Shown in pieces: positions 1 to 56,713 of a stretch of 58,884 nucleotides of DNA. The notes below the pieces were generated by a model. It saw only the letters and a list, made by a program, of their open reading frames with translations, was not told where the DNA came from and made no database searches. This DNA comes from Chloroflexota bacterium (GTDB lineage: Bacteria > Chloroflexota > Limnocylindria > Limnocylindrales > CSP1-4): NCBI GenBank assembly GCA_003158675.1, contig PMKN01000064.1, positions 1 through 58,884 of the forward strand, in the 5' to 3' direction. The translations under genes were made by a program, and so were the position numbers. How positions within the stretch are numbered: the stretch's first letter is position 1; each line of letters starts with the position of its first letter.

Positions 1-813
1 GTACTTCGCCAGCATCTCGCACAGGTCGTCGTCGATGCGCTGCGGCAGGAAGACTGGCACGCGCGAGCCGATGCGGATGATCTCGATATGGGGGATCTCG
101 CGCAGGCTGCGGATGATCGACTCGAGCAGCTTCGGATTGAGCGTCAGCGCGTCGCCGCCTGAGAGCAGTACGTCTCGGACCTGTGGGGTGCGGCGCAGGT
201 AATCGAGCTGGGCCTCGACATCGTGGCGGTTGAAGTTCTGCGACGCGTCGCCGACGATGCGCGACCGCGTGCAGTACCGGCAATAGCTCGCGCACTGGGT
301 CGTAACCAGCATCAGAACTCTGTCCGGGTAGCGGTGGACGAGCCCTGGAACCGGGGAGTGGCGGTCCTCGGCAAGCGAGTCCTCCATCATCGCCGTGAAG
401 GCTTCGTGTTCGCAGTCTGTGGGGATGACCTGGCGGCGGATCGGGTCGTCGGGATCGTCGGGGTCGATCAGGCTCAGGAAGTAGGGCGTGATGTCGACCC
501 GGAACTTGTCCGGCGACGACAGCCCGGCGCGCTCGTCGTCGGTCAGGTTGAGGACGCTGCCAATCTCCTCGACCGAGTTGACGCGGTTGGAAAGCTGCCA
601 GCGCCAGTCGTTCCAGCGCTCGTCGGGCACGTCCGCCCAGATGGGGGCACGGCGGCTGACGGCAGGGTGGCCATCAGGCCCGAGGGCGCGGGCGGGGTCA
701 CGCAGGTTGACGAAGGGGGCGTCGTCGTGGCGCGCCGCCAGCGCATGTGCGGCCGCGGTCTCCCCGGCAAGGCGTGCCGCCGGGTCGTGATCGCCAACCC
801 TGGGCTCTGCCAT
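1..813 (-). CDS. kamA: Lysine 2,3-aminomutase (KamA family radical SAM), N-terminal part, truncated at left edge
   Basis: Manual translation from ATG 813 (SD GGAGG upstream): WNDWRWQL, EDSLAEDRHSPVPGLVHRYPDRVL, CxxxCxxC motif CASYCRYC, VRDVLLSGGD, IRIGSRVPVFLPQRI. Not in the ORF track because it has no stop in the window. Confidence 0.92.
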   Translation of the reverse strand, partial: MAEPRVGDHDPAARLAGETAAAHALAARHDDAPFVNLRDPARALGPDGHPAVSRRAPIWADVPDERWNDWRWQLSNRVNSVEEIGSVLNLTDDERAGLSSPDKFRVDITPYFLSLIDPDDPDDPIRRQVIPTDCEHEAFTAMMEDSLAEDRHSPVPGLVHRYPDRVLMLVTTQCASYCRYCTRSRIVGDASQNFNRHDVEAQLDYLRRTPQVRDVLLSGGDALTLNPKLLESIIRSLREIPHIEIIRIGSRVPVFLPQRIDDDLCEMLAKY

Positions 814-869: not shown

Positions 870-895
870 CGCATAAAGCCTATGCACTCTGCATG
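870..895 (-). promoter_or_regulatory. Candidate operator: ATGCA-N3-TGCAT palindrome plus TGCAT-N7-ATGCG, just downstream of a TATGAT -10 (903-908)
   Basis: Minus strand reads CATGCAGAGTGCATAGGCTTTATGCG; the 14-mer ATGCAGAGTGCATA recurs exactly at 53878-53891 upstream of the dap operon. Confidence 0.65.
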
Positions 896-963
896 CCCGA
901 CGATCATACATCGGGCGGACCGCAATGGCGTCGAATGCCGCCTGGCGGCACGGTCGCCTGGCG

Positions 964-2670: not shown

Positions 2671-3108
2671 ATGCGACTTGATCTCACCAAACGCAGCGAC
2701 TACGCCATACGGGCGATGCTCGCTCTAACCAAGACGCCGGACGGTCTCCTGAGCAGCCGCAAGATCGCGGAAGAGATGAAGATCCCGCCGCGCTTCCTGC
2801 CGCAGATCATGGGCGACCTCACCCGGGCCGGCCTCGTCGAAGCCCATCCCGGCCGTTCCGGGGGGTACAAACTCGCGAAGTCGGCTTCGTCGGTGACGCT
2901 GTTGACGGTCATCGAGGCCGTCGAAGGCGATCCTCATCGCCAGATCTGCGTGATGCGCGGGACTGCGTGCGGGGCGGACGGCGAATGTGGCGTCCACGAC
3001 GTGTTCTACGCGGCCGAGAGCGCGATCCTCGAGAAGCTCAGCGGAGCCACGCTCCAGAGCATCATCGACGCGTTCCTGGCCAAGCAAGCGGTTGCCGCCA
3101 ACGCCTAG
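2671..3108 (+). CDS. Rrf2-family transcriptional regulator with Fe-S ligand motif
   Basis: MRLDLTKRSDYAIRAMLAL, GLVEAHPGRSGGYKLAK; C-X6-C-X5-C-X2-H near C-terminus. Confidence 0.9.
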   Translation: MRLDLTKRSDYAIRAMLALTKTPDGLLSSRKIAEEMKIPPRFLPQIMGDLTRAGLVEAHPGRSGGYKLAKSASSVTLLTVIEAVEGDPHRQICVMRGTACGADGECGVHDVFYAAESAILEKLSGATLQSIIDAFLAKQAVAANA

Positions 3109-32646: not shown

Positions 32647-32771
32647 GCAAGCAGGTTAGCAGGGCGTTTCGTGACGGTTGCGACCGGCGTTCGGTAGCCC
32701 GCAGGACGAGATCGGCCATGCGAGCCCGAGGCATCCTTGCGGCGCCAGGTGCTAGGATTCGGCCAACCGAA

Positions 32772-32862
32772 TACGCCTCCGGGGAGCGCCACTGGCGCTG
32801 AGAGTGCGGCTCCTGCCGCAGACCCGCTGTACCTGATCTGGGTAATGCCAGCGAAGGAAGCA
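32772..32862 (+). ncRNA. TPP riboswitch (THI box)
   Basis: GGGGAG...CTGAGA...GACCC...ACCTGATCTGGGTAATGCCAGCGAAGGAA directly upstream of thiD operon. Confidence 0.95.
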
Positions 32863-32880
32863 GGCACAACCAACTCCCTC

Positions 32881-49663: not shown

Positions 49664-51019
49664 CTACCAGCGCGGTGCGACCTGCGAGTCCAGGAGTTCG
49701 CGCGGGGAGACGCGCGGCCGGATCAGTCTGGCCTCGCCGCCGCGCACCGCCACCTCCGCAGCGGTTGGGTGCGACAGGAAGTACGGCATCGATTCGGTGA
49801 ATCCGTACGCGCCCGCGTCCAGCACAGCAATGAGATCGCCAACCTGCGGCTTCGGCAGCAACGCGGCCGTGGCGAAGACGTCCAGACCGGTGCAGAGCGG
49901 TCCCGCCACGGTAGTGGGAACGCGTTCACGCGAGTCGGCGTCCGTGGCCAGAAGCGCCAGGCGCTGCGGTTGACGCACGAGCGCGGTCCGAACCAGGTGG
50001 TTGATACCGCCATCGAGAATCGCGACCGGCGCCGCGTCGGTGCCTTTCACGTCCACGACCCGGGCCACGTACGCTCCTGCGGGCCCCACGAGGAAGCGGC
50101 CGGGCTCGAGCAGGACTTCCATCTCGCGCAGGGCGGGATCCCGGTCCCAACGGGCGCGCAGCTCCTCCAGCCGAGCCCCCAAAGCGGCGAGGTCCAGTGG
50201 CTTCTCGGCGTCGGCGTAGGGGATCCCCAGCCCGCCGCCCGCGTCCACGAGCCGGAGCGGAACGCCCGCCTCGGCGGCCACTTCCTCACCGACTGCCACC
50301 AGCTCCGCCACGTGATCCACCAGACGGTCGACGTCGAGCAGGTTGGACGCGCCGAAGGCGTGGATGCCGAGCAGCTCCAGGTTGGGTGACGCTGCAGCGC
50401 GCTTCGCCGCTTCCTTGAGGACCGGCAGCGGCATGCCGAACTTGCCTTCGGCGCCACCGATGAGACGGACCCGTTCGAACTTCGCGTCGTCGGCCACGGC
50501 GAGACGCAGCAGGACGGGCTGGCGACGCTGAAGCCGAGCCGCGATGCCTTCGAGACGCTCCAGCTCCCCTGGCGATTCGACGGTCACGGCGCCGATGCCA
50601 GCGGTCACCGCGGCGGCCAGCTCGTCGTCGCGCTTGCCCGGCCCGGTCATCGCGATCGAGACCGGGGCGAAACCCGCGCGGAGCACGGTTTCGAGCTCGC
50701 CGCCCGAGGCTATGTCAGCGCCGATGCCGCAACCGGCGACATGGGCGAGCAGGCCGAGCGCGGGATTGGCCTTGACGGCGAAGGCGAGCCGGAACCCGAA
50801 CGGGAGAACGGCCCCCAGCGCGTCGATGCGACGGCCGATCAGGTCCAGGTCGTAGACGTAGAGCGGCGTCCCGAAGTCCCTCGCCAGCGCAGCCGGGGAA
50901 GCCCCGCCCAGAAGCCCGTCGCCGAGCATGGTGTCGATTTGGGGCGGCCGGGGGGCTTCCGCCTGCTCGACCGAAGGGTCGGCCGCCTGTTCGACCGAAG
51001 CCGGCTCCTGGGTGGTCAC
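49664..51019 (-). CDS. lysA: Diaminopimelate decarboxylase (fold-type III PLP), atypical motifs
   Basis: FGTPLYVYD, FAVKANP, ASGGEL, TGPGKR, DAGGGLG, EPGRFLV, AGAYG; last gene of dap operon (GTGA overlap). Confidence 0.82.
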   Translation of the reverse strand: MTTQEPASVEQAADPSVEQAEAPRPPQIDTMLGDGLLGGASPAALARDFGTPLYVYDLDLIGRRIDALGAVLPFGFRLAFAVKANPALGLLAHVAGCGIGADIASGGELETVLRAGFAPVSIAMTGPGKRDDELAAAVTAGIGAVTVESPGELERLEGIAARLQRRQPVLLRLAVADDAKFERVRLIGGAEGKFGMPLPVLKEAAKRAAASPNLELLGIHAFGASNLLDVDRLVDHVAELVAVGEEVAAEAGVPLRLVDAGGGLGIPYADAEKPLDLAALGARLEELRARWDRDPALREMEVLLEPGRFLVGPAGAYVARVVDVKGTDAAPVAILDGGINHLVRTALVRQPQRLALLATDADSRERVPTTVAGPLCTGLDVFATAALLPKPQVGDLIAVLDAGAYGFTESMPYFLSHPTAAEVAVRGGEARLIRPRVSPRELLDSQVAPRW

Positions 51020-51816
51020 CGCAGGGCCTCCCGGAGAGCGACTCTGGCGTCGGTGCGCTCGTCGCGGTACTTGACGATGACCGCGGCCGAAAGGCCGATG
51101 CCGTTCGCCTCCGCGAATTCGCCGCGAGCTTGCCGTACGCCCGGCGCGACAACGGCTCCGGCCGGCACGATGAGCGGCTCCTCCAGCGTCCCGACGATGA
51201 CGCGGGCCTGCACGAGATCGTACAAGCGGCTCGTGCCCGTCAGGATCGTTCCTGCGGCGATCACCGCGCCGCGCTTGACGAGCACGCCCTCGAGCAGCGC
51301 CGATTGCGCCCCGACGAAGACCTCGTCCTCCACGATTACGGGCCGGCGGCCGGCCGGCTCCAGGACCCCGCCGATCTGGACCGCGGCCGAGAGATGGACG
51401 CGCGCCCCGATCTGGGCGCACGAGCCCACCAGGACGTGCGAGTCGACCATCGTGCCCTCGCCGACCCAGGCCCCGACGTTGATGTACGAGGGCGGCATGA
51501 TCGTCACGCCGGGCGCGAGATACACGCCGCGCCGGACCGAGGAGCCGCCCGGGACGACCCGCCACGGCTTGCCCGCCGCAAGCGCCGCGCGTGCCTCCTC
51601 CGAATCGAGCAGGTCCTTGACCGGTAGTCCAACGCGGTCGCGGAACTGGAAGGCTCCGTCGATGTTCCACGTTCGCGTGGCGCGGTCGGAGAACAGCGAC
51701 AGGATCGCCTGTTGGACCTCGGGATTGACTCGCCAACCGTCGGCCGAGGAAGGGTCTGGTTCGGCGGCCCGGCTCTCACCCGAATCCAAAGCCCGCAGGA
51801 TCGAGTCCATGCTCAC
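51016..51816 (-). CDS. dapD: Tetrahydrodipicolinate N-succinyltransferase
   Basis: RVVPGG, MPPSYINVGAWV, MVDSHVLVGSCAQIG, GGVLEP, IVKYRDERTDAR. Confidence 0.93.
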   Translation of the reverse strand: MSMDSILRALDSGESRAAEPDPSSADGWRVNPEVQQAILSLFSDRATRTWNIDGAFQFRDRVGLPVKDLLDSEEARAALAAGKPWRVVPGGSSVRRGVYLAPGVTIMPPSYINVGAWVGEGTMVDSHVLVGSCAQIGARVHLSAAVQIGGVLEPAGRRPVIVEDEVFVGAQSALLEGVLVKRGAVIAAGTILTGTSRLYDLVQARVIVGTLEEPLIVPAGAVVAPGVRQARGEFAEANGIGLSAAVIVKYRDERTDARVALREALR

Positions 51817-52781
51817 GCTACTCCCACGCCTGCCGGTGCGGTCGATGAGGTCGCTGCTCCGTCCGCGTCCGCATCGAGAAGCCCGAACCCCGTGAGAAGC
51901 GTCCGCATTCGGCTCCGGTGCGGCTCATCGAGCGGCATCAGCGGCATGCGCAGTGTGTCCGAGCAGAGTCCCATCAGCGACATGGCCGCCTTCACCGGGA
52001 CCGGGTTCGGGCCGCCCAGGAAGTTCGCCTTCATCAGCGGTAGCCAGCGCTCGTGGATCGCGCGAGCACGGTCCCAGTCGCCGGCGAAGGCCGCGTCGCA
52101 CAACTCCGCCATTTCGCCGGGGATCTCATTGGCGCACGTGCAAATGACTCCGTCGCCGCCGAGGGCGAGCATCGGCATCGTCCAGGTGTCGTCGCCTGCG
52201 AGGACCGAGAAGTCCGCTGGGCGCTCACTCAGTATCGTCGCAATCTGGTCCATGTTCGCCGACGCTTCCTTCAATGCCACGATCCGAGGATGCTCGGCGA
52301 GACGGAGGAGGGTTGCCGCCTCGACGTTCACGCCGGTGCGGCCCGGGACGTTGTAGACGATGATCGGGAGGTCGCCCTCATCGGCCACGGCTCGGAAGTG
52401 CGACTCGAGCATCCGCTGGTCGGGCTTGTTGTAGTACGGCGCCACGACGAGAGCGGCGTCCACGCCGAGCTTCGCGGCGCGCCGCGTCGAGCTGATCGCG
52501 GTCGCCGTGCTGTTGGAGCCGGTACCGGCGATGACACGAACACGCGCCCGGCTCGGCCGCTCGGACGCGACCTCCAGAGTCGTGCCGATGACCCACTCAT
52601 CTTCTTCGTGGCTCAAGGTCGGTGTTTCGCCGGTGGTGCCGCACGCGACCAGGCCGTGTATGCAGGCGTCGATCTGGCGGCGGACCAGCGCGCGGAAGGC
52701 AGCCTCATCGATTTCTCCGGACGGGGTGAATGGCGTGACGAGGGCCGTGAAGGCTCCTCGGAACTGGCGGCTGGGTGGCAT
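51813..52781 (-). CDS. dapA: 4-hydroxy-tetrahydrodipicolinate synthase
   Basis: TALVTPF, GTTGE, GTGSNST, APYYNKP, YNVPGRTG, ALKEAS, PVPVKAAM. Confidence 0.96.
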   Translation of the reverse strand: MPPSRQFRGAFTALVTPFTPSGEIDEAAFRALVRRQIDACIHGLVACGTTGETPTLSHEEDEWVIGTTLEVASERPSRARVRVIAGTGSNSTATAISSTRRAAKLGVDAALVVAPYYNKPDQRMLESHFRAVADEGDLPIIVYNVPGRTGVNVEAATLLRLAEHPRIVALKEASANMDQIATILSERPADFSVLAGDDTWTMPMLALGGDGVICTCANEIPGEMAELCDAAFAGDWDRARAIHERWLPLMKANFLGGPNPVPVKAAMSLMGLCSDTLRMPLMPLDEPHRSRMRTLLTGFGLLDADADGAATSSTAPAGVGVA

Positions 52782-52810
52782 CTCGGTCGCTCCTTGAGGA
52801 ATCGCGGGGT

Positions 52811-53626
52811 TCAGTGGGAGGCGTGGGAGTCAGGCTGGGCGGCCGCTCGGCCGTCCGATCCGGAGCCAGCAGAGGCTCTGGCGATGATCGAGTCGAGGAC
52901 ATCGTCGAAGCTATGGAAACCGGGTGCGCGTGGCTCGGCCAGCAGCCACTCGGCGGCGGCGATAGCCCCGGAGGCGTAGGCCGACCGATCTCGAGCGGTC
53001 AGGCGCATCTCCAGGCTCTCGCCCGGGGCGTCGAAACCGACCAGATGCATGCCCGGGGCCGCGCCTGCCCGGATGACCGACACGTCCAGCTCCTCGGGCG
53101 CGGGCGAGCCGTGGACCATCGGCTGAGCCACGCGGGTCTTGCGCGGATGCGCGGCTATGAGCCGGCGGGACAGCTCGATGGCGGTGCCCGAGGGGCGATC
53201 CGTCTTGGTGCGACGGTGCCACTCGACCAGATATGGGTCGTATTCGGCAAACGGGCCGAAGAGCCGGGCCGCGTCCTCTACGAGACGGGCGAACAGCATG
53301 ACGCCGAGGCTGAAGCTGGCCGATGCGACTGCCGCGGCGCGGCCATCGAGCAGCAGCCGCTCGACCTGGGGGCGGTCGGCGGCCCAGGCCGTCGTGCCGA
53401 TCACGAAGTTGCGGATGCCCGCGTCCAGTGCTGCCTGCACGTTCGGAAGAACGGCCTCGCCGACGCTGAAATCGAACAGCACGTCCGCGCCACGGAAGCG
53501 CTCCGGCAGGTGGCCGGCGGCGGAGTCAGGCATGCCCAGGATCGCCTGGGGCGGCATGCCGCGGCCCGCCAGCGCAGACGCAACCACCAGACCCATGCCT
53601 CCGTCCCCGGCGACGATACTCAGCAT
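52811..53626 (-). CDS. dapB: 4-hydroxy-tetrahydrodipicolinate reductase
   Basis: GDGGMG, DFS, VIGTT, SFSLGV, EWHRRTKTDRPSGTA, RSAYASGA; SD GGAGG. Confidence 0.9.
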   Translation of the reverse strand: MLSIVAGDGGMGLVVASALAGRGMPPQAILGMPDSAAGHLPERFRGADVLFDFSVGEAVLPNVQAALDAGIRNFVIGTTAWAADRPQVERLLLDGRAAAVASASFSLGVMLFARLVEDAARLFGPFAEYDPYLVEWHRRTKTDRPSGTAIELSRRLIAAHPRKTRVAQPMVHGSPAPEELDVSVIRAGAAPGMHLVGFDAPGESLEMRLTARDRSAYASGAIAAAEWLLAEPRAPGFHSFDDVLDSIIARASAGSGSDGRAAAQPDSHASH

Positions 53627-53664
53627 TCCGATTTGCCTCCGTGGTTGTTCCGACGTGGTCCCAG

Positions 53665-53703
53665 AAAATGGAAAGCCGCGGCACCTGTTTGCGGTGTCGC
53701 GGC
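53665..53703 (-). terminator. Attenuator terminator
   Basis: Minus strand GCCGCGACACC-GCAAACA-GGTGCCGCGGC followed by TTTCCATTTT, 39 nt upstream of dapB start. Confidence 0.75.
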
Positions 53704-53755
53704 CCTCGGAGCCTTGCCCTCTGGCTCCGCGGTTCATCCGAAACGCCGCCGAGCC

Positions 53756-53824
53756 TTAGGGCCGAGCCTCGCGGCAGGGCCGCCAACGCTTCGACTTGGG
53801 CTTGGCGGGCAGCTGGATGAACAT
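53756..53824 (-). CDS. Leader peptide MFIQLPAKPKSKRWRPCREARP (22 aa)
   Basis: ATG 9 nt after CATAAT -10; AAG codons at positions 8, 10, 12; TAA stop. Confidence 0.7.
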   Translation of the reverse strand: MFIQLPAKPKSKRWRPCREARP

Positions 53825-53833
53825 TGCTGGCGG

Positions 53834-53863
53834 ATTATGCACCAACTGACAACAGATGCGCAA
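53834..53863 (-). promoter_or_regulatory. Sigma70-like promoter of leader-dap operon (TTGCGC-18-CATAAT)
   Basis: Hexamers at 53858-53863 and 53834-53839 in an AT-enriched patch. Confidence 0.55.
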
Positions 53864-53876
53864 CCATTGCGGTCAT

Positions 53877-53916
53877 TATGCAGAGTGCATACGAGGAGCT
53901 GCATAGACAGCATGCA
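53877..53916. promoter_or_regulatory. Candidate operator: TATGCA-GAG-TGCATA palindrome plus TGCAT-N7-ATGCA
   Basis: 15-bp dyad at 53877-53891; 14-mer identical to kamA upstream element; second dyad at 53900-53916. Confidence 0.65.
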
Positions 53917-54017
53917 TCGCGGATAGGAGGCCCGCCAGGACTGGGCGCGGCGCCGCAGGCCCGGGGTAGGGATTTCCCGCCGTTCCTCGCGCCTTTGACG
54001 GTGCTACCTTCGATGGC

Positions 54018-56111
54018 ATGGAGTCCATTCGACGCCGGCCCACTCGGGGTTCTGCGGCCGTCGCGCTGGCCGTAATTGCGGCGGTTGCGTCAGTGACGGC
54101 GCTGCGCTTGCCAGCGCCGGATGTGGGGTTCCACCTTGCCTACCAGAACGGCGAAGTCGAAGTCTCGTCGGTGGACTACGGCAGCGCGGCCCAGTCGGGC
54201 GATATGCAGTCCGGCGTCGTTGTCACGTGGCTGAACGGTCAGTACCTGCTTGGCATGTCCGAGCAGGCCAAACGCGACCTCGTCCAATCGGGCGGGCCCT
54301 GGGTGACGTTGCGGACCACGACCCGAGACCAGGTGGCCGCCGAGGAGGCCGCGTACACGAAGCTCGCCGCCGTGGCGCGCCAGAGCGATACTCCCTGGCT
54401 GGCGAATCCCGAGGCGAACCCGGTGCCGGCGTGCTACCTGGACGGGACGTGCATCCCTTTCGAAACACGGTGGCAGGCGGATGGCGGCAGTTTCACCTAC
54501 TCCATCCTTAGCCCCATGGTCGAGGGCGCCGCACTGTGTCTGCCCACGGATGGCAACCAGGTTTCGGTATCGTTCGCGGAATCCTTGTTGCAGCCGGACG
54601 GGGCGGGATCCTACACGGTTTATGCGACCGGAGCGCAATTCTGCGTCCTGGGTTCCCCGGTTCCCGGCGCTTCCCCATACGGGTACATCGGTGCATCCGA
54701 CCAGTTGTACTTCCGGGACTGGTGGATGCCGGTCGGGTCCGACCCCGGACCAGCCATCCTCGGCTTCGCGATCCTGCTGTTCGGTTGGCTCATCGTCGGC
54801 CGCGGCTGGGCCGGCTCGACACTCAAGCCCTTCGCCCTGACGCTTCCGCTTGCCACGGCGGTGCCGCTGCTCGTAGTGCCCATCGACCGCTACCCGACTC
54901 TGGCGGCGCTTGTCGCGGGTTCGATCCTGGTGCCGATGGCCATGCTGCCGCTCGCCATCGACTTCCTCGACCGGATGGATCGTGGCTCGCGCCGGTCGCT
55001 CGTCGCTTCGGTCACCGTTGGACTGGCGCTCGGATCCGCCGGCTGCGGACTCCTGATGCCTGCCGATTACGCTCTGGTCGTGCTGCGCGCCTTCCTGGCC
55101 GGTTGTGTGCCATTCGTCCCCGGCCTGTTCGCGGCCCGCCCGTTCCACCGCCTGGAATCGGGCGCGATCCCCGGCCGCAGCCGGTGGCGTGGCGTTGCCG
55201 CAAGCGGGTTGACATTGATCCCAGGGCCGTTCGCCGCTCGGCTGGCGCGCCGGCTCGAGTTCGGCTCGGCCGCGTCGTCGAGCCCGACTCCTCGCGCGCT
55301 GATCGATCGGGTCGACATACTGCTGGCGGCCATGACGCCTGGCATCGCCGCGATCTGCCTTACCTCCCCGTACAAGGTCGCGGTCGAGCCTCTCCTGTAT
55401 TGGCTGGCAGCGTTGCTGGTCGCGACCCGCCTCATCGTGCGGCCTCTCGGGCGGCTCGCGACAGTTGCGGTCCGCCAGCGCGATCTGGTCGTCGCCGCCA
55501 CCGAAGCTGAGCGGACTCGGATCGCCGCCGACATCCACGACGATGCCCTCCAGGATCTGACGATGCTGGTGCGCCGACTCGACGCGGCCGGCGACGCGCA
55601 GAACGCGCAGGCGGCACGAGACATCGCCGAGCGGCTGCGAGCGATCTGCGGCGACCTGCGGCTGCCGGTGCTCGACGATCTTGGCGTCGGCCCGGCGCTC
55701 GAATGGCTATGCAGCCGGTTGGACGTGAAGACCGAACCCATCACGCTCGACCGTCTCGATGGCGAAGCCAGGCTTCCGGCAGACGTCGAGCTGGCCGTCT
55801 TCCGGATCGCCCAGGAAGCTCTCTCGAACGCGGTCCGGCATGGCGCGGCGCCTGTCGTGGTGCGCTATCGGGCGCGGGACGGATGGGTCGAACTCGAGGT
55901 GGACGACGCCGGCCCGGGGATCGCGGATGGCGCGGCCGAGCTGGCCGAGAAGACCGGTCACCTGGGGCTGCTCAACATGACGCAGCGATCCGAGGCCGTG
56001 GGGGCGAGACTCTCGATCCGCGGCAGGCCGGGCGGCGGCACGCGGGTCTCTTTCGTCTGGGAACGCGCGAGTTCCACGAACGGCGCCGTGGCCGCGATCG
56101 CTCCCGCATGA
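54018..56111 (+). CDS. Membrane sensor histidine kinase (HisKA_3/NarX-like) with PDZ-like N-terminal region
   Basis: RIAADIHDDALQ H-box, QEALSNAVRHG, DDAGPG, GHLGLLNM; multiple TM. Confidence 0.88.
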   Translation: MESIRRRPTRGSAAVALAVIAAVASVTALRLPAPDVGFHLAYQNGEVEVSSVDYGSAAQSGDMQSGVVVTWLNGQYLLGMSEQAKRDLVQSGGPWVTLRTTTRDQVAAEEAAYTKLAAVARQSDTPWLANPEANPVPACYLDGTCIPFETRWQADGGSFTYSILSPMVEGAALCLPTDGNQVSVSFAESLLQPDGAGSYTVYATGAQFCVLGSPVPGASPYGYIGASDQLYFRDWWMPVGSDPGPAILGFAILLFGWLIVGRGWAGSTLKPFALTLPLATAVPLLVVPIDRYPTLAALVAGSILVPMAMLPLAIDFLDRMDRGSRRSLVASVTVGLALGSAGCGLLMPADYALVVLRAFLAGCVPFVPGLFAARPFHRLESGAIPGRSRWRGVAASGLTLIPGPFAARLARRLEFGSAASSSPTPRALIDRVDILLAAMTPGIAAICLTSPYKVAVEPLLYWLAALLVATRLIVRPLGRLATVAVRQRDLVVAATEAERTRIAADIHDDALQDLTMLVRRLDAAGDAQNAQAARDIAERLRAICGDLRLPVLDDLGVGPALEWLCSRLDVKTEPITLDRLDGEARLPADVELAVFRIAQEALSNAVRHGAAPVVVRYRARDGWVELEVDDAGPGIADGAAELAEKTGHLGLLNMTQRSEAVGARLSIRGRPGGGTRVSFVWERASSTNGAVAAIAPA

Positions 56112-56713
56112 GCGAGCCGCAGGGCGCGATCCGAGTCGCGATCGTCGACGACCACCCGGTCGTGCGCGAAGGAACGGCGGCGTTGCTCGCGGTACAGCCG
56201 GGACTTCGAATAGCAGGAACGGCGGCGTCCATTGAGGAGGCGGCGCCGCTCCTGGATCCGTCGGCCGTGGACGTTCTGCTGGTCGACATCAGGCTCGGGA
56301 CCGATAGCGGACTGGTGCTGCTGGCGGGCGACGCGCCTCGGCCGGCGATCGTGGTCCTGACCGCCTACGACTACCCGCAGTACGCGGCAGCGGCAAGGCG
56401 TATGGGCGCGTCCGGATTCGTCGTCAAGACAGCGCCGGTGGCAGAGCTGGTGGAGGCGATTCGGTGCGCAGCGGCCGGAGGCGAGGCGTTTGGCTGCGCG
56501 CCAGACAGTCCGGTCGCGCTGACCCGGCGCGAACTCGAGGTCGTTCGTCTCGTGGCCGACGGCCGCAGCAACGACGAGATCGGAGCTGCGCTCGGGATCA
56601 CGACCAAGACGGTCGAGGGGCATCTGCGGCGGCTGTTCGAACGCCTGGCGGTGCAATCGCGAACGGAACTCGCCACGCGCGCGGTGCGCGAAGGCTGGCT
56701 CGAGGTGCCGTAG
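56108..56713 (+). CDS. NarL/LuxR-family response regulator
   Basis: IVDDHPVVREG, LVDIRL, FVVKT, LTRRELEVV...GRSNDEIG...KTVEGH; ATGA overlap with kinase. Confidence 0.93.
   Translation: MSEPQGAIRVAIVDDHPVVREGTAALLAVQPGLRIAGTAASIEEAAPLLDPSAVDVLLVDIRLGTDSGLVLLAGDAPRPAIVVLTAYDYPQYAAAARRMGASGFVVKTAPVAELVEAIRCAAAGGEAFGCAPDSPVALTRRELEVVRLVADGRSNDEIGAALGITTKTVEGHLRRLFERLAVQSRTELATRAVREGWLEVP

What the first reader, a model, noticed from the sequence alone, without database searches (positions are those of the whole stretch)
870..928. Identical palindromic element upstream of lysine catabolism (kamA) and lysine synthesis (dap): an unnamed lysine regulon
Seen: ATGCAGAGTGCATA occurs exactly at 881-894 (minus) and 53878-53891 (plus), 53 kb apart. 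Each site also carries a TGCAT-N7-ATGC dyad (870-886; 53900-53916) and the same 11-mer CCATTGCGGTC (918-928; 53864-53874) in the same relative orientation. Rough estimate: a 14-mer match between two 200-bp regions on either strand is about 8e4/4^14, or 3e-4. At kamA the dyad starts 8 nt downstream of a TATGAT -10 (over the likely TSS, a repressor position). At dap it sits 14-28 bp upstream of the predicted -35 (an activator position). Inference: one lysine-sensing factor that, when lysine is low, activates synthesis and represses degradation. The spacing does not fit tandem ARG boxes. The regulator is unidentified; an Lrp/AsnC protein elsewhere or the adjacent divergent two-component pair are candidates.
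Basis: partly seen in the sequence, partly recalled or inferred. Interest (0 to 1): 0.8.

Follow-up and report, generated by a model that had tools for sequence, protein, structure and literature searches.

The report
Conserved lysine-gene operator, probable ArgR paralogue
The repeated 14-mer is the core of a DNA operator kept for a very long time in front of lysine-breakdown and lysine-synthesis genes in an uncultured group of soil and freshwater Chloroflexota, and the protein that reads it is most likely a duplicated arginine-repressor-type regulator working on a new site geometry.

Summary
ATGCAGAGTGCATA occurs only twice in the whole 2.78-Mb genome, upstream of kamA and of dapB. The real unit is three half-sites, ATnCA-N3-TGCATA-N5-TATGCR. 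At kamA it starts 8 nt after the -10 box.

This unit is kept upstream of kamA in 93 distinct sequences from Limnocylindria, a class of Chloroflexota. It also sits before a class-III aminotransferase/CoA-transferase operon, on another contig here and in relatives. It occurs in several copies upstream of the dapB-dapA-dapD-lysA promoter. The arms do not vary, the spacers do, and the h1/h2 pairing is broken in 44% of sequences. It therefore reads as a protein operator, not an RNA switch. The shared 11-mer CCATTGCGGTC is not part of it.

The half-sites match ARG-box half-sites, but the spacing is N7/N3, not N4. A canonical N4 ARG box sits at argC in the same genome.

The order carries a second ArgR paralogue (ArgR2), syntenic with lysyl-tRNA synthetase. 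Lineages that keep only ArgR2 still have the operator. Other families, and the one ArgR-less genome that has kamA, lack it.

ArgR2 is my best candidate (inferred, about 45%). Effector and sign are unknown.

The parts
870..894 (-). kamA operator: h1 ATGCA (894-890), gag, h2 TGCATA (886-881), ggctt, h3 TATGCG (875-870)
   Evidence: Read. PWM score 46.4 bits, the top hit in the genome. The same architecture is found in 93 distinct kamA upstream regions.
903..908 (-). Probable -10 box TATGAT of kamA, 8 nt upstream of h1
   Evidence: TATGAT or TATCAT is conserved at a fixed distance from the operator in almost all kamA loci. It is not called by the strict consensus scan.
1..813 (-). kamA, lysine 2,3-aminomutase (5' part, cut by the contig end); SD GGAGG at 824-820, ATG at 813-811
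   Evidence: The full-length orthologue L077 scores 565.8 bits on TIGR03820, cut-off 525.4. It scores 568 bits against PDB 2A5H, with D293 and D330 conserved. The gene is monocistronic in L077.
918..928 (-). 11-mer CCATTGCGGTC at kamA: not part of the operator
   Evidence: 8 copies in the genome. Not conserved at this place in relatives.
53878..53891 (+). dap site A: ATGCA-gag-TGCATA (palindromic). On the dapB strand it reads ATGCA-ctc-TGCATAAT.
   Evidence: ATnCA-N3-TGnAT at this position relative to the leader in 13 of the 18 g1 dapB regions that could be anchored on the leader.
53900..53924 (-). dap site B: a full three-half-site unit on the dapB strand, ATCCG-cga-TGCATG-ctgtc-TATGCA
   Evidence: PWM score 15.2 bits, the third hit in the genome. 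The same unit is seen in L055, L058, L064 and L070, 9-10 nt from site A.
53858..53872 (.). Separate palindrome GCGCAA-cca-TTGCGG (contains the 11-mer). It overlaps a possible -35 (TTGCGC) of the dap leader promoter.
   Evidence: Conserved as CGCAA-N3-TTGCGC upstream of dapB in g1 and absent at kamA. A NarL/ComA-type site or a hairpin is inference only.
53834..53842 (-). (G/A)TGCATAAT just before the leader ORF: either the -10 box or the alternative start codon of a 28-codon leader
   Evidence: The first base is A or G in all relatives examined, giving ATG or GTG, and the distance to the ATG of MF(V/I)Q... is fixed at 9 nt.
53660..53824 (-). Lys-codon leader ORF (53824-53756, MFIQLPAKPKSKRWRPCREARP*), structured leader and terminator-like hairpin (53703-53675) followed by a T-run. 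Context only; this is a separate finding of the scan.
   Evidence: Synonymous changes in relatives: AAG to AAA, CCC to CCG, TCG to TCC. Flagged independently as e1-5236664.
49664..53629 (-). dapB (52811-53629), dapA (51813-52781), dapD (51016-51816), lysA (49664-about 51000): lysine biosynthesis operon
   Evidence: ORFs. dapD scores 259 bits on NF008808, above its cut-off. lysA scores 293.8 bits on TIGR01048, just below the cut-off of 297.9. dapB is conserved in 22 of 24 other g1 genomes.
54018..56713 (+). Histidine kinase and NarL/LuxR-type response regulator, divergent from dapB: not linked to the operator
   Evidence: The kinase is found next to dapB in only about 4 of 23 g1 loci. Response-regulator family.
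2671..3108 (+). Rrf2-family regulator near kamA: examined as a candidate and set aside
   Evidence: Syntenic with kamA in g1, but it has no orthologue in f2. The f2 Rrf2 is the orthologue of the other paralogue, C39:12413.

Best explanation
**What it is.** The 14-mer is the core of a transcription-factor operator built from three ARG-type half-sites: ATnCA-N3-TGCATA-N5-TATGCR.

**Where it sits.**
- At kamA and at the aminotransferase/CoA-transferase operon, one unit lies immediately downstream of the -10 box, over the transcription start.
- Upstream of the dapB-dapA-dapD-lysA leader promoter, two units lie side by side.
- Together these three loci form a small regulon for lysine use and synthesis in the order holding families f1 and f2 of Limnocylindria.

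**Who binds it (inferred).** The most likely binder is ArgR2, a second ArgR-family paralogue encoded in uppP-argR2-(greA)-lysK. It would bind as an oligomer on a roughly 20-bp repeat when a basic amino acid is bound. Lysine is favoured by the targets and the lysK synteny. Arginine is not excluded, because the ligand pocket is canonical.

**What it does (inferred).** It would repress dap, adding to the Lys-codon leader attenuator. It would either repress or, like AhrC at catabolic genes, activate kamA and the aminotransferase operon.

**Shown.** The operator, its conservation and its gene set.
**Inferred.** The identity of the protein, the effector and the sign of control.
For: **Operator and regulon.**
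- The motif is unique to these loci in the genome.
- It is conserved in 93 distinct kamA upstream regions, with invariant arms and a variable spacer.
- The aminotransferase site is identical (TGCATAAAGGCTATCCG) in about 20 g1 genomes and is present in f2.
- In metagenome contigs with at least 58% GC, 21 of 25 full-pattern hits precede kamA (11) or the aminotransferase (10). Two more are kamA-like sites cut by contig ends.
- The dap sites stay with dapB, not with the kinase.

**ArgR link.**
- The half-sites equal those of the canonical N4 ARG box at argC in the same genome (TGCAT-gact-ATTCA). That box is kept in 23 of 25 g1 argC loci.
- They also equal S. coelicolor ARG boxes (PMC5839063, Table 1: CTTTGCATGGTCATGCGTAA).
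- There are two ArgR paralogues in f1. ArgR1 lies inside argCJB-R-G.
- f2 lacks argC, dapB and ArgR1, yet keeps ArgR2 fused in an operon with lysK, and keeps an operator at both kamA and the aminotransferase operon (two or three pattern hits per genome).
- In families f3, f4 and f5, the six ArgR genes examined lie inside the arg operon and many f4 genomes have none; the pattern is at control level there.
- The one ArgR-less genome with kamA (G046) keeps the -10 box but has no operator.
- f1 genomes with only ArgR2 (genus g17) keep the operator.
- AhrC is a documented bifunctional repressor and activator (PMC10404663).
Against: - No binding data exist.
- The spacing (12 and 8 bp between half-site centres) is not that of any described ARG box (9 bp).
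- No operator lies near argR2 or lysK.
- G094 (only ArgR1 found) and G126 (no ArgR found, 90% complete) still have operators. This could reflect assembly gaps or could be a real contradiction.
- The co-occurrence of ArgR2 with the operator is confounded by phylogeny, since each probably arose once.
- ArgR2's pocket (PGSAHAI...GDDT) looks like an arginine pocket, not an obviously altered one.
- I could not check whether the ArgR2-only genomes keep an N4 box at argC.
Confidence: 0.5

Rival explanations
1. The operator is real but is read by a different regulator. Candidates are the single Lrp/AsnC-family protein of this genome (C6:53565-54077) or an unrecognised protein, sensing lysine.
For: - The h1-N3-h2 part (5-3-5, 13 bp) has the general shape of Lrp/AsnC-family sites (own knowledge).
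- One Lrp homologue exists, next to an ornithine/lysine-cyclodeaminase-family gene.
- Lrp-type regulators control lysine catabolism in other bacteria (own knowledge).
- The evidence for ArgR2 is circumstantial.
Against: - The best conserved part is the 6-5-6 palindrome, not the 5-3-5 one. The centre of h1 is mismatched to h2 in 44% of sequences.
- No operator-like site lies near the Lrp gene.
- I could not test whether f2 has Lrp.
- The neighbours I tested fail the phyletic test. These are the Rrf2 regulator, the 140-aa protein downstream of kamA, and the two-component pair.
Confidence: 0.3
2. The element acts as RNA. A 5'-terminal hairpin UGCAUA-N5-UAUGCR in the kamA and aminotransferase mRNAs, possibly alternating with AUGCA-N3-UGCAU, would control stability or translation or bind an RNA-binding protein.
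For: - It lies at or just after the likely transcription start.
- The h2/h3 arms can pair in 99.4% of cells, including U-G in 54 of 84 sequences.
- One pair changes on both sides (C-G to G-C) in 5 sequences.
Against: - Three of six pairs never vary, and the double change is confined to one clade (f2). Mixed forms break it.
- The alternative h1/h2 helix is mismatched at its centre in 37 of 84 sequences.
- There is no Rfam match.
- At dap the units lie upstream of the leader promoter. Site B lies about 60-85 bp upstream of the proximal TGCATAAT box, where no transcript is expected.
- The spacer sequence is free while the arm sequence is fixed, which is the signature of sequence-specific protein contact.
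Confidence: 0.07
3. The match is a chance or recent-duplication similarity between two AT-richer promoter regions, with no shared function.
Against: The element is conserved at orthologous positions across two families, with different spacer sequences, and recurs at a third locus.
Confidence: 0.01

Closest known systems
ArgR/AhrC with ARG boxes (E. coli ArgR, B. subtilis AhrC, S. coelicolor and M. tuberculosis ArgR)
   Same: - The half-site TGnAT/ATnCR is the same.
- Sites are placed on or next to the promoter, and several half-sites are read by one oligomer on a roughly two-turn repeat.
- One protein controls both synthesis and breakdown of an amino acid (AhrC; PMC10404663).
- An ArgR-family protein is encoded in every f1 and f2 genome examined except one.
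   Different: - The spacing is TGCAT-N7-ATGCR and ATnCA-N3-TGCAT, not TGnAT-N4-ATnCA.
- The targets are lysine genes, not arg genes.
- The arg operon in the same genome has its own canonical N4 box.
- The candidate protein is a paralogue outside the arg operon.
Thermus thermophilus lysine cluster: ArgR plus a lysine leader peptide (Fujiwara et al. 2006, Microbiology 152:3585, listed in the references of PMC5737407; Tsubouchi et al. 2005 J Biol Chem, from memory)
   Same: Lysine biosynthesis genes under dual control: an ArgR-family protein at the promoter and a Lys-codon leader-peptide attenuator.
   Different: - Thermus uses the alpha-aminoadipate pathway, whose enzymes are shared with or related to arginine synthesis, and its single canonical ArgR with arginine.
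- Here the pathway is diaminopimelate, the regulon also covers kamA and a catabolic operon, and a second paralogue is implicated.
- I could not read either paper.
Lysine riboswitch (L-box, RF00168)
   Same: It controls lysine synthesis and transport genes in many bacteria.
   Different: It is an RNA aptamer of about 180 nt. There is no Rfam match at either site, even at E of 10 or less.
ArgP (IciA)/LysG LysR-type regulators of dapB, lysP and lysE in proteobacteria and corynebacteria (own knowledge)
   Same: Lysine- and arginine-responsive control of dapB and lysine genes by a DNA-binding protein.
   Different: These are LysR-type proteins with T-N11-A boxes, usually encoded divergently from their target. 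No such gene is conserved next to any of the three loci.
KamR / sigma-54 control of kamA in Bacillus thuringiensis (from scan note e1-2963394, not checked by me)
   Same: Dedicated transcriptional control of a kamA locus.
   Different: That system uses an enhancer-binding protein with -24/-12 promoters. Here the promoter is sigma-70-like, with TATGAT or TATCAT followed by an operator.

Membership tests
ARG box / ArgR regulon | Half-site TGnAT/ATnCA recognised by the ArgR winged helix | tested here: met
   In 84 distinct sites the invariant positions are T, C, A of h1, T, G, A, T, A of h2 and A, T, C of h3, and the centre of h1 and h3 varies. The half-sites equal the argC box of the same genome and S. 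coelicolor boxes (PMC5839063).
ARG box / ArgR regulon | 18-bp palindrome with 4 bp between the half-sites, often two boxes 2-3 bp apart | tested here: not met
   The spacing is N7 (h2-h3) and N3 (h1-h2) at kamA, the aminotransferase operon and dap. The only N4 box near arg genes is at argC.
ARG box / ArgR regulon | An ArgR-family protein encoded in genomes that carry the sites | tested here: met
   PF01316 matches in 41 of 41 f1/f2 genomes. Exceptions in the wider sample are G126 (none found, 90% complete) and G094 (only ArgR1 found).
ARG box / ArgR regulon | Arginine-dependent binding of the hexamer to the site | not testable with these tools
   This needs EMSA or footprinting with purified ArgR1 and ArgR2.
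Lysine riboswitch (L-box) | Match to the RF00168 covariance model in the 5' leader | tested here: not met
   No match at the gathering threshold in the window. No match at E of 10 or less in 53600-54060 or 780-1000.
Lrp/AsnC-family operator | 13-15 bp palindrome (5-3-5) with an A/T-rich centre, usually several phased copies, and usually also at the regulator's own gene | tested here: inconclusive
   h1-N3-h2 has 5-3-5 geometry. However, its spacer is G/C-rich and variable and its centre is mismatched in 44% of sites. One Lrp gene exists, with no site near it.
LysR-type (T-N11-A) box | Dyad with a T-N11-A core next to a divergently transcribed LysR-type gene | tested here: inconclusive
   TGCATA-N5-TATGCA formally contains T-N11-A. 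No regulator gene is conserved divergently at kamA, the aminotransferase operon or dapB. LysR genes elsewhere in the genome were not surveyed.

The most novel reading that the evidence does not exclude
In one order of Limnocylindria an ArgR gene was duplicated. The copy, sitting next to lysyl-tRNA synthetase, became the master regulator of lysine metabolism. It reads ARG-type half-sites rearranged to a new geometry (ATnCA-N3-TGCATA-N5-TATGCR). This lets the same cell run an arginine regulon (N4 box, ArgR1) and a lysine regulon (N7 box, ArgR2) with near-identical recognition helices. The regulon also points to an undescribed KamA-initiated route that degrades beta-lysine through an aminotransferase, an aldehyde dehydrogenase and a CoA-transferase.
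Probability: 0.35. Interest if true: 0.72.

Novelty: new variant of a known kind. Interest (0 to 1): 0.6.

Why it matters
Apart from the L-box and a few LysR- or Lrp-type regulators, lysine control in most phyla is unknown, and nothing is known for Limnocylindria. These are abundant uncultured Chloroflexota of peat, soil and lakes.

- The operator gives a clean, testable regulon that ties lysine synthesis to a KamA-based lysine-use pathway.
- If ArgR2 is the binder, it would show how a hexameric amino-acid repressor gains a second regulon by changing half-site spacing rather than base contacts.
- It would also parallel the ArgR plus Lys-leader dual control described for Thermus.
- The regulon persists in 1.1-Mb streamlined genomes with no detectable argC or dapB, which suggests that imported lysine matters to them.

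Tried and rejected
**Known RNA families.** Rfam was run at the gathering threshold and at E of 10 or less. Nothing matched at either site; the only hits in the window are a TPP riboswitch and a tRNA elsewhere.

**The 11-mer as part of the element.** Rejected: 8 genomic copies, different spacing at the two sites, and no conservation at kamA.

**Candidate regulators set aside.**
- Rrf2 next to kamA: syntenic in g1, but it has no f2 orthologue.
- A conserved 140-aa protein downstream of kamA in f2 and many other species: absent from all 25 g1 genomes, with no Pfam or NCBIfam hit.
- The two-component pair divergent from dapB: not conserved there.
- A Fur-like gene beside the aldehyde dehydrogenase in f2: it sits next to a Ni/Co-type transporter and has no counterpart at that position in g1.

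**Autoregulation.** I looked for an operator at argR2, lysK or the Lrp gene and found none.

**A fourth regulon member.** An ABC-transporter binding-protein gene carries a site in G017 and G020. It has no orthologue in this genome.

- The strict sigma-70 scan calls no promoter at either site.
- MAFFT alignment of the two regions was uninformative.
- The Thermus ArgR paper is not held in the library.

Full report
**1. Observation**

The 14-mer ATGCAGAGTGCATA lies at 881-894 (minus strand) and 53878-53891 (plus strand). No third site appears in the window, even with two mismatches. The window is contig C41:1-58884 of a 2.78-Mb, 67% GC, 102-contig genome. In that genome both the 14-mer and the palindrome ATGCA-N3-TGCAT occur only at these two places.

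The TGCAT-N7-ATGC dyads at 870-886 and 53900-53916 are also there.

The 11-mer CCATTGCGGTC is present at both sites, but I do not count it as part of the element:
- It is 23 nt from the 14-mer at kamA and 3 nt from it at dap.
- It has eight copies in the genome, mostly in coding sequence.
- It is not kept at kamA in relatives.

**2. Organism and genes**

Related kamA loci all come from MAGs labelled Chloroflexota or Candidatus Limnocylindrales, from fens, peat and soil.

kamA is a genuine lysine 2,3-aminomutase:
- The full-length orthologue passes the TIGR03820 cut-off.
- It aligns over its whole length with the Clostridium enzyme 2A5H. It keeps D293 and D330, which from memory are the residues that hold the lysine epsilon-amino group.
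- The gene stands alone.

The other site lies upstream of dapB-dapA-dapD-lysA.

**3. Anatomy at kamA**

I compared 110 kamA upstream regions from relatives. Of these, 109 held a match within 3 mismatches, and 93 distinct sites entered the model (84 distinct 30-mers). The layout is fixed:
- a -10 box, TATGAT or TATCAT;
- 8 nt;
- h1, (A/T)TnCA;
- 3 nt;
- h2, TGCATA;
- 5 nt;
- h3, TATGC(G/A).

In the window these are 908-903, 894-890, 886-881 and 875-870. The spacers vary freely. The arms are invariant apart from the central base. In the small-genome family f2 the site reads ATTCA-N3-TGGATA-N5-TATCCA or ATCCA-N3-TGCATA-N5-TATCCA.

**4. The regulon**

A weight matrix built from the kamA sites finds only three loci above 12 bits in the genome:
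- kamA, 46 bits;
- C6:13667, 27 bits;
- the dap region, 15 bits.

The C6 site reads TATACT-N9-ATCCA-gcc-TGCATA-aacgc-TATCCG. It precedes a class-III aminotransferase followed by CoA-transferase subunits A and B. A glutamate-semialdehyde-dehydrogenase-like gene lies just upstream. Electron-transfer-flavoprotein and acyl-CoA dehydrogenase genes lie divergently.

That site is conserved:
- It is identical (TGCATAAAGGCTATCCG) in about 20 congeneric genomes.
- It is present before the same gene in f2.

An exact scan of metagenome contigs with the full three-half-site pattern gave 25 hits in contigs of at least 58% GC. Of these:
- 11 precede kamA;
- 10 precede the aminotransferase;
- 2 are kamA-like sites cut by contig ends.

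**5. The dap region**

Read on the dapB strand, in order:
- a full unit, ATCCG-cga-TGCATG-ctgtc-TATGCA (53924-53900);
- 9 nt;
- ATGCA-ctc-TGCATAAT (53891-53878 and onward);
- a separate palindrome, CCGCAA-tgg-TTGCGC;
- a second TGCATAAT (53841-53834);
- the Lys-codon leader ORF and terminator, which the scan has flagged separately.

This arrangement recurs in congeners. The histidine kinase that is divergent here lies next to dapB in only about 4 of 23 genomes. The sites therefore belong to dapB.

Which TGCATAAT is the -10 box is not settled. The base before the proximal one is always A or G, so it could instead be a start codon.

**6. DNA or RNA**

- The h2/h3 arms could pair in RNA (99.4% of cells). 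Three of six pairs never vary, and the only double change is confined to f2.
- The h1/h2 helix has a mismatched centre in 37 of 84 sequences.
- At dap the units lie upstream of the leader promoter.
- No Rfam family matches.

Fixed arm sequence with a free spacer points to a sequence-specific DNA-binding protein.

**7. Which protein**

Several neighbours fail a simple test, which is that the regulator must exist wherever the operator does:
- The Rrf2 gene near kamA has no f2 orthologue.
- A 140-aa protein encoded after kamA in f2 is absent from all g1 genomes.
- The two-component pair is not syntenic with dapB.

The half-sites themselves are ARG-box half-sites:
- In this genome the argC promoter carries TGCAT-gact-ATTCA at its -35. 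This box is kept in 23 of 25 congeners.
- S. coelicolor ARG boxes read TGCAT-N4-ATGCG (PMC5839063).

The genome has two ArgR-family genes:
- ArgR1 lies inside argC-argJ-argB-argR-argG. Its ligand motif is GDNT.
- ArgR2 lies in uppP-argR2-greA-lysK. Its motif is the canonical GDDT.
- lysK is a class-I lysyl-tRNA synthetase.

**8. Phyletic pattern**

- **f2 (1.0-1.4 Mb genomes):** no match to argC, dapB or ArgR1. ArgR2 is present and is followed 10 nt later by lysK. An operator precedes both kamA and the aminotransferase operon (two or three pattern hits per genome).
- **Families f3, f4 and f5:** the six ArgR genes examined lie inside the arg operon and many f4 genomes have none. Almost none has kamA. 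The N7 pattern is at control level, with 2 hits in 40 genomes.
- **G046:** the one genome in these families with kamA has no ArgR. Its kamA keeps TATCAT but has no operator.
- **f1 genus g17:** only ArgR2 is present, and the operators are kept.
- **Exceptions:** G094 (only ArgR1 found) and G126 (no ArgR found) have operators. G061 (only ArgR1 found) has none. All three are 90-95% complete.

**9. Mechanism**

What is shown is an operator over the start site of two catabolic transcription units and next to the promoter of the lysine biosynthetic operon.

What is inferred:
- An ArgR2 oligomer reads half-sites whose same-orientation repeat is 20 bp. This is close to the 21 bp of tandem ARG boxes, although the inner spacings are 12 and 8 bp rather than 9 and 12 bp.
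- ArgR-family proteins bind DNA with the amino acid bound, and AhrC represses synthesis and activates breakdown (PMC10404663).
- The simplest model is therefore repression of dap and control of kamA and the aminotransferase operon when lysine (or arginine) is plentiful.
- At kamA the position suggests repression. That would be odd for a catabolic gene, so the sign is open.

**10. Comparison and novelty**

The nearest known system is ArgR/AhrC with ARG boxes. The defining N4 spacing is not met, so I do not file the sites as ARG boxes.

A functional parallel is Thermus, where ArgR and a lysine leader peptide both act on the lysine cluster. I know this from a reference listed in PMC5737407 and from memory; I could not read the paper.

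I found no description of this operator, or of an ArgR paralogue tied to lysine genes, in five literature searches of the held library. Absence from that library is weak evidence.

**11. Limits**

- All genomes are MAGs.
- No transcript data could be used.

Noticed in passing
window 53660-53842 (-): A Lys-codon leader ORF (MFIQLPAKPKSKRWRPCREARP*, possibly starting 6 codons earlier at GTG 53842) followed by a conserved structured leader and terminator before dapB. Relatives show synonymous changes inside the ORF: AAG to AAA, CCC to CCG, TCG to TCC. The peptide always ends in (A/E)ARP-stop or a similar sequence.
   Followed up: partly
window 53858-53872: The palindrome GCGCAA-N3-TTGCGG is conserved upstream of dapB in congeners and overlaps a possible -35. 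It resembles ComA/NarL-type sites (from memory). No binder has been identified.
   Followed up: partly
genome contigs C12:11253-11813 and C95:about 1330-1800: Two ArgR paralogues. The one inside the arg operon has an altered ligand motif (PGSAGAI...GDNT). The one next to greA and lysK is canonical (PGSAHAI...GDDT). This raises the question of which of them senses arginine.
   Followed up: partly
genome contig C6:8044-17059: A cluster of acyl-CoA dehydrogenase, EtfAB, a P5C-dehydrogenase-like aldehyde dehydrogenase, a class-III aminotransferase and CoA-transferase A/B, co-regulated with kamA. It could be an undescribed beta-lysine (or 5-aminovalerate/glutarate-type) degradation route.
   Followed up: no
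L127:7114-7572 and L157:9515-9916 (relatives): A conserved protein family of about 140 aa is encoded just downstream of kamA in f2 and many other Limnocylindria. It is absent from the window's genus and has no Pfam or NCBIfam match.
   Followed up: partly
f2 genomes G025-G040: These 1.0-1.4-Mb genomes give no match to argC (E of 1e-20 or less) or dapB (E of 1e-30 or less), yet keep kamA at 76-79% identity. They are probably arginine and lysine auxotrophs that still process lysine.
   Followed up: partly
window 32770-32877 (+): A TPP riboswitch (RF00059, 71.6 bits).
   Followed up: no
window 2671-3108 (+): An Rrf2-family regulator with a Cys-x6-Cys-x5-Cys motif is kept within 1-8 kb of kamA in nearly all congeners. 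kamA is an oxygen-sensitive Fe-S enzyme, so a redox link is conceivable.
   Followed up: partly
L169:4082 and L171:4046 (G017, G020): An operator-like site (TGCATAGGCCGTATSCG) lies about 120 nt upstream of an ABC-transporter substrate-binding-protein gene in two congeners. This gene has no orthologue in the window's genome.
   Followed up: partly
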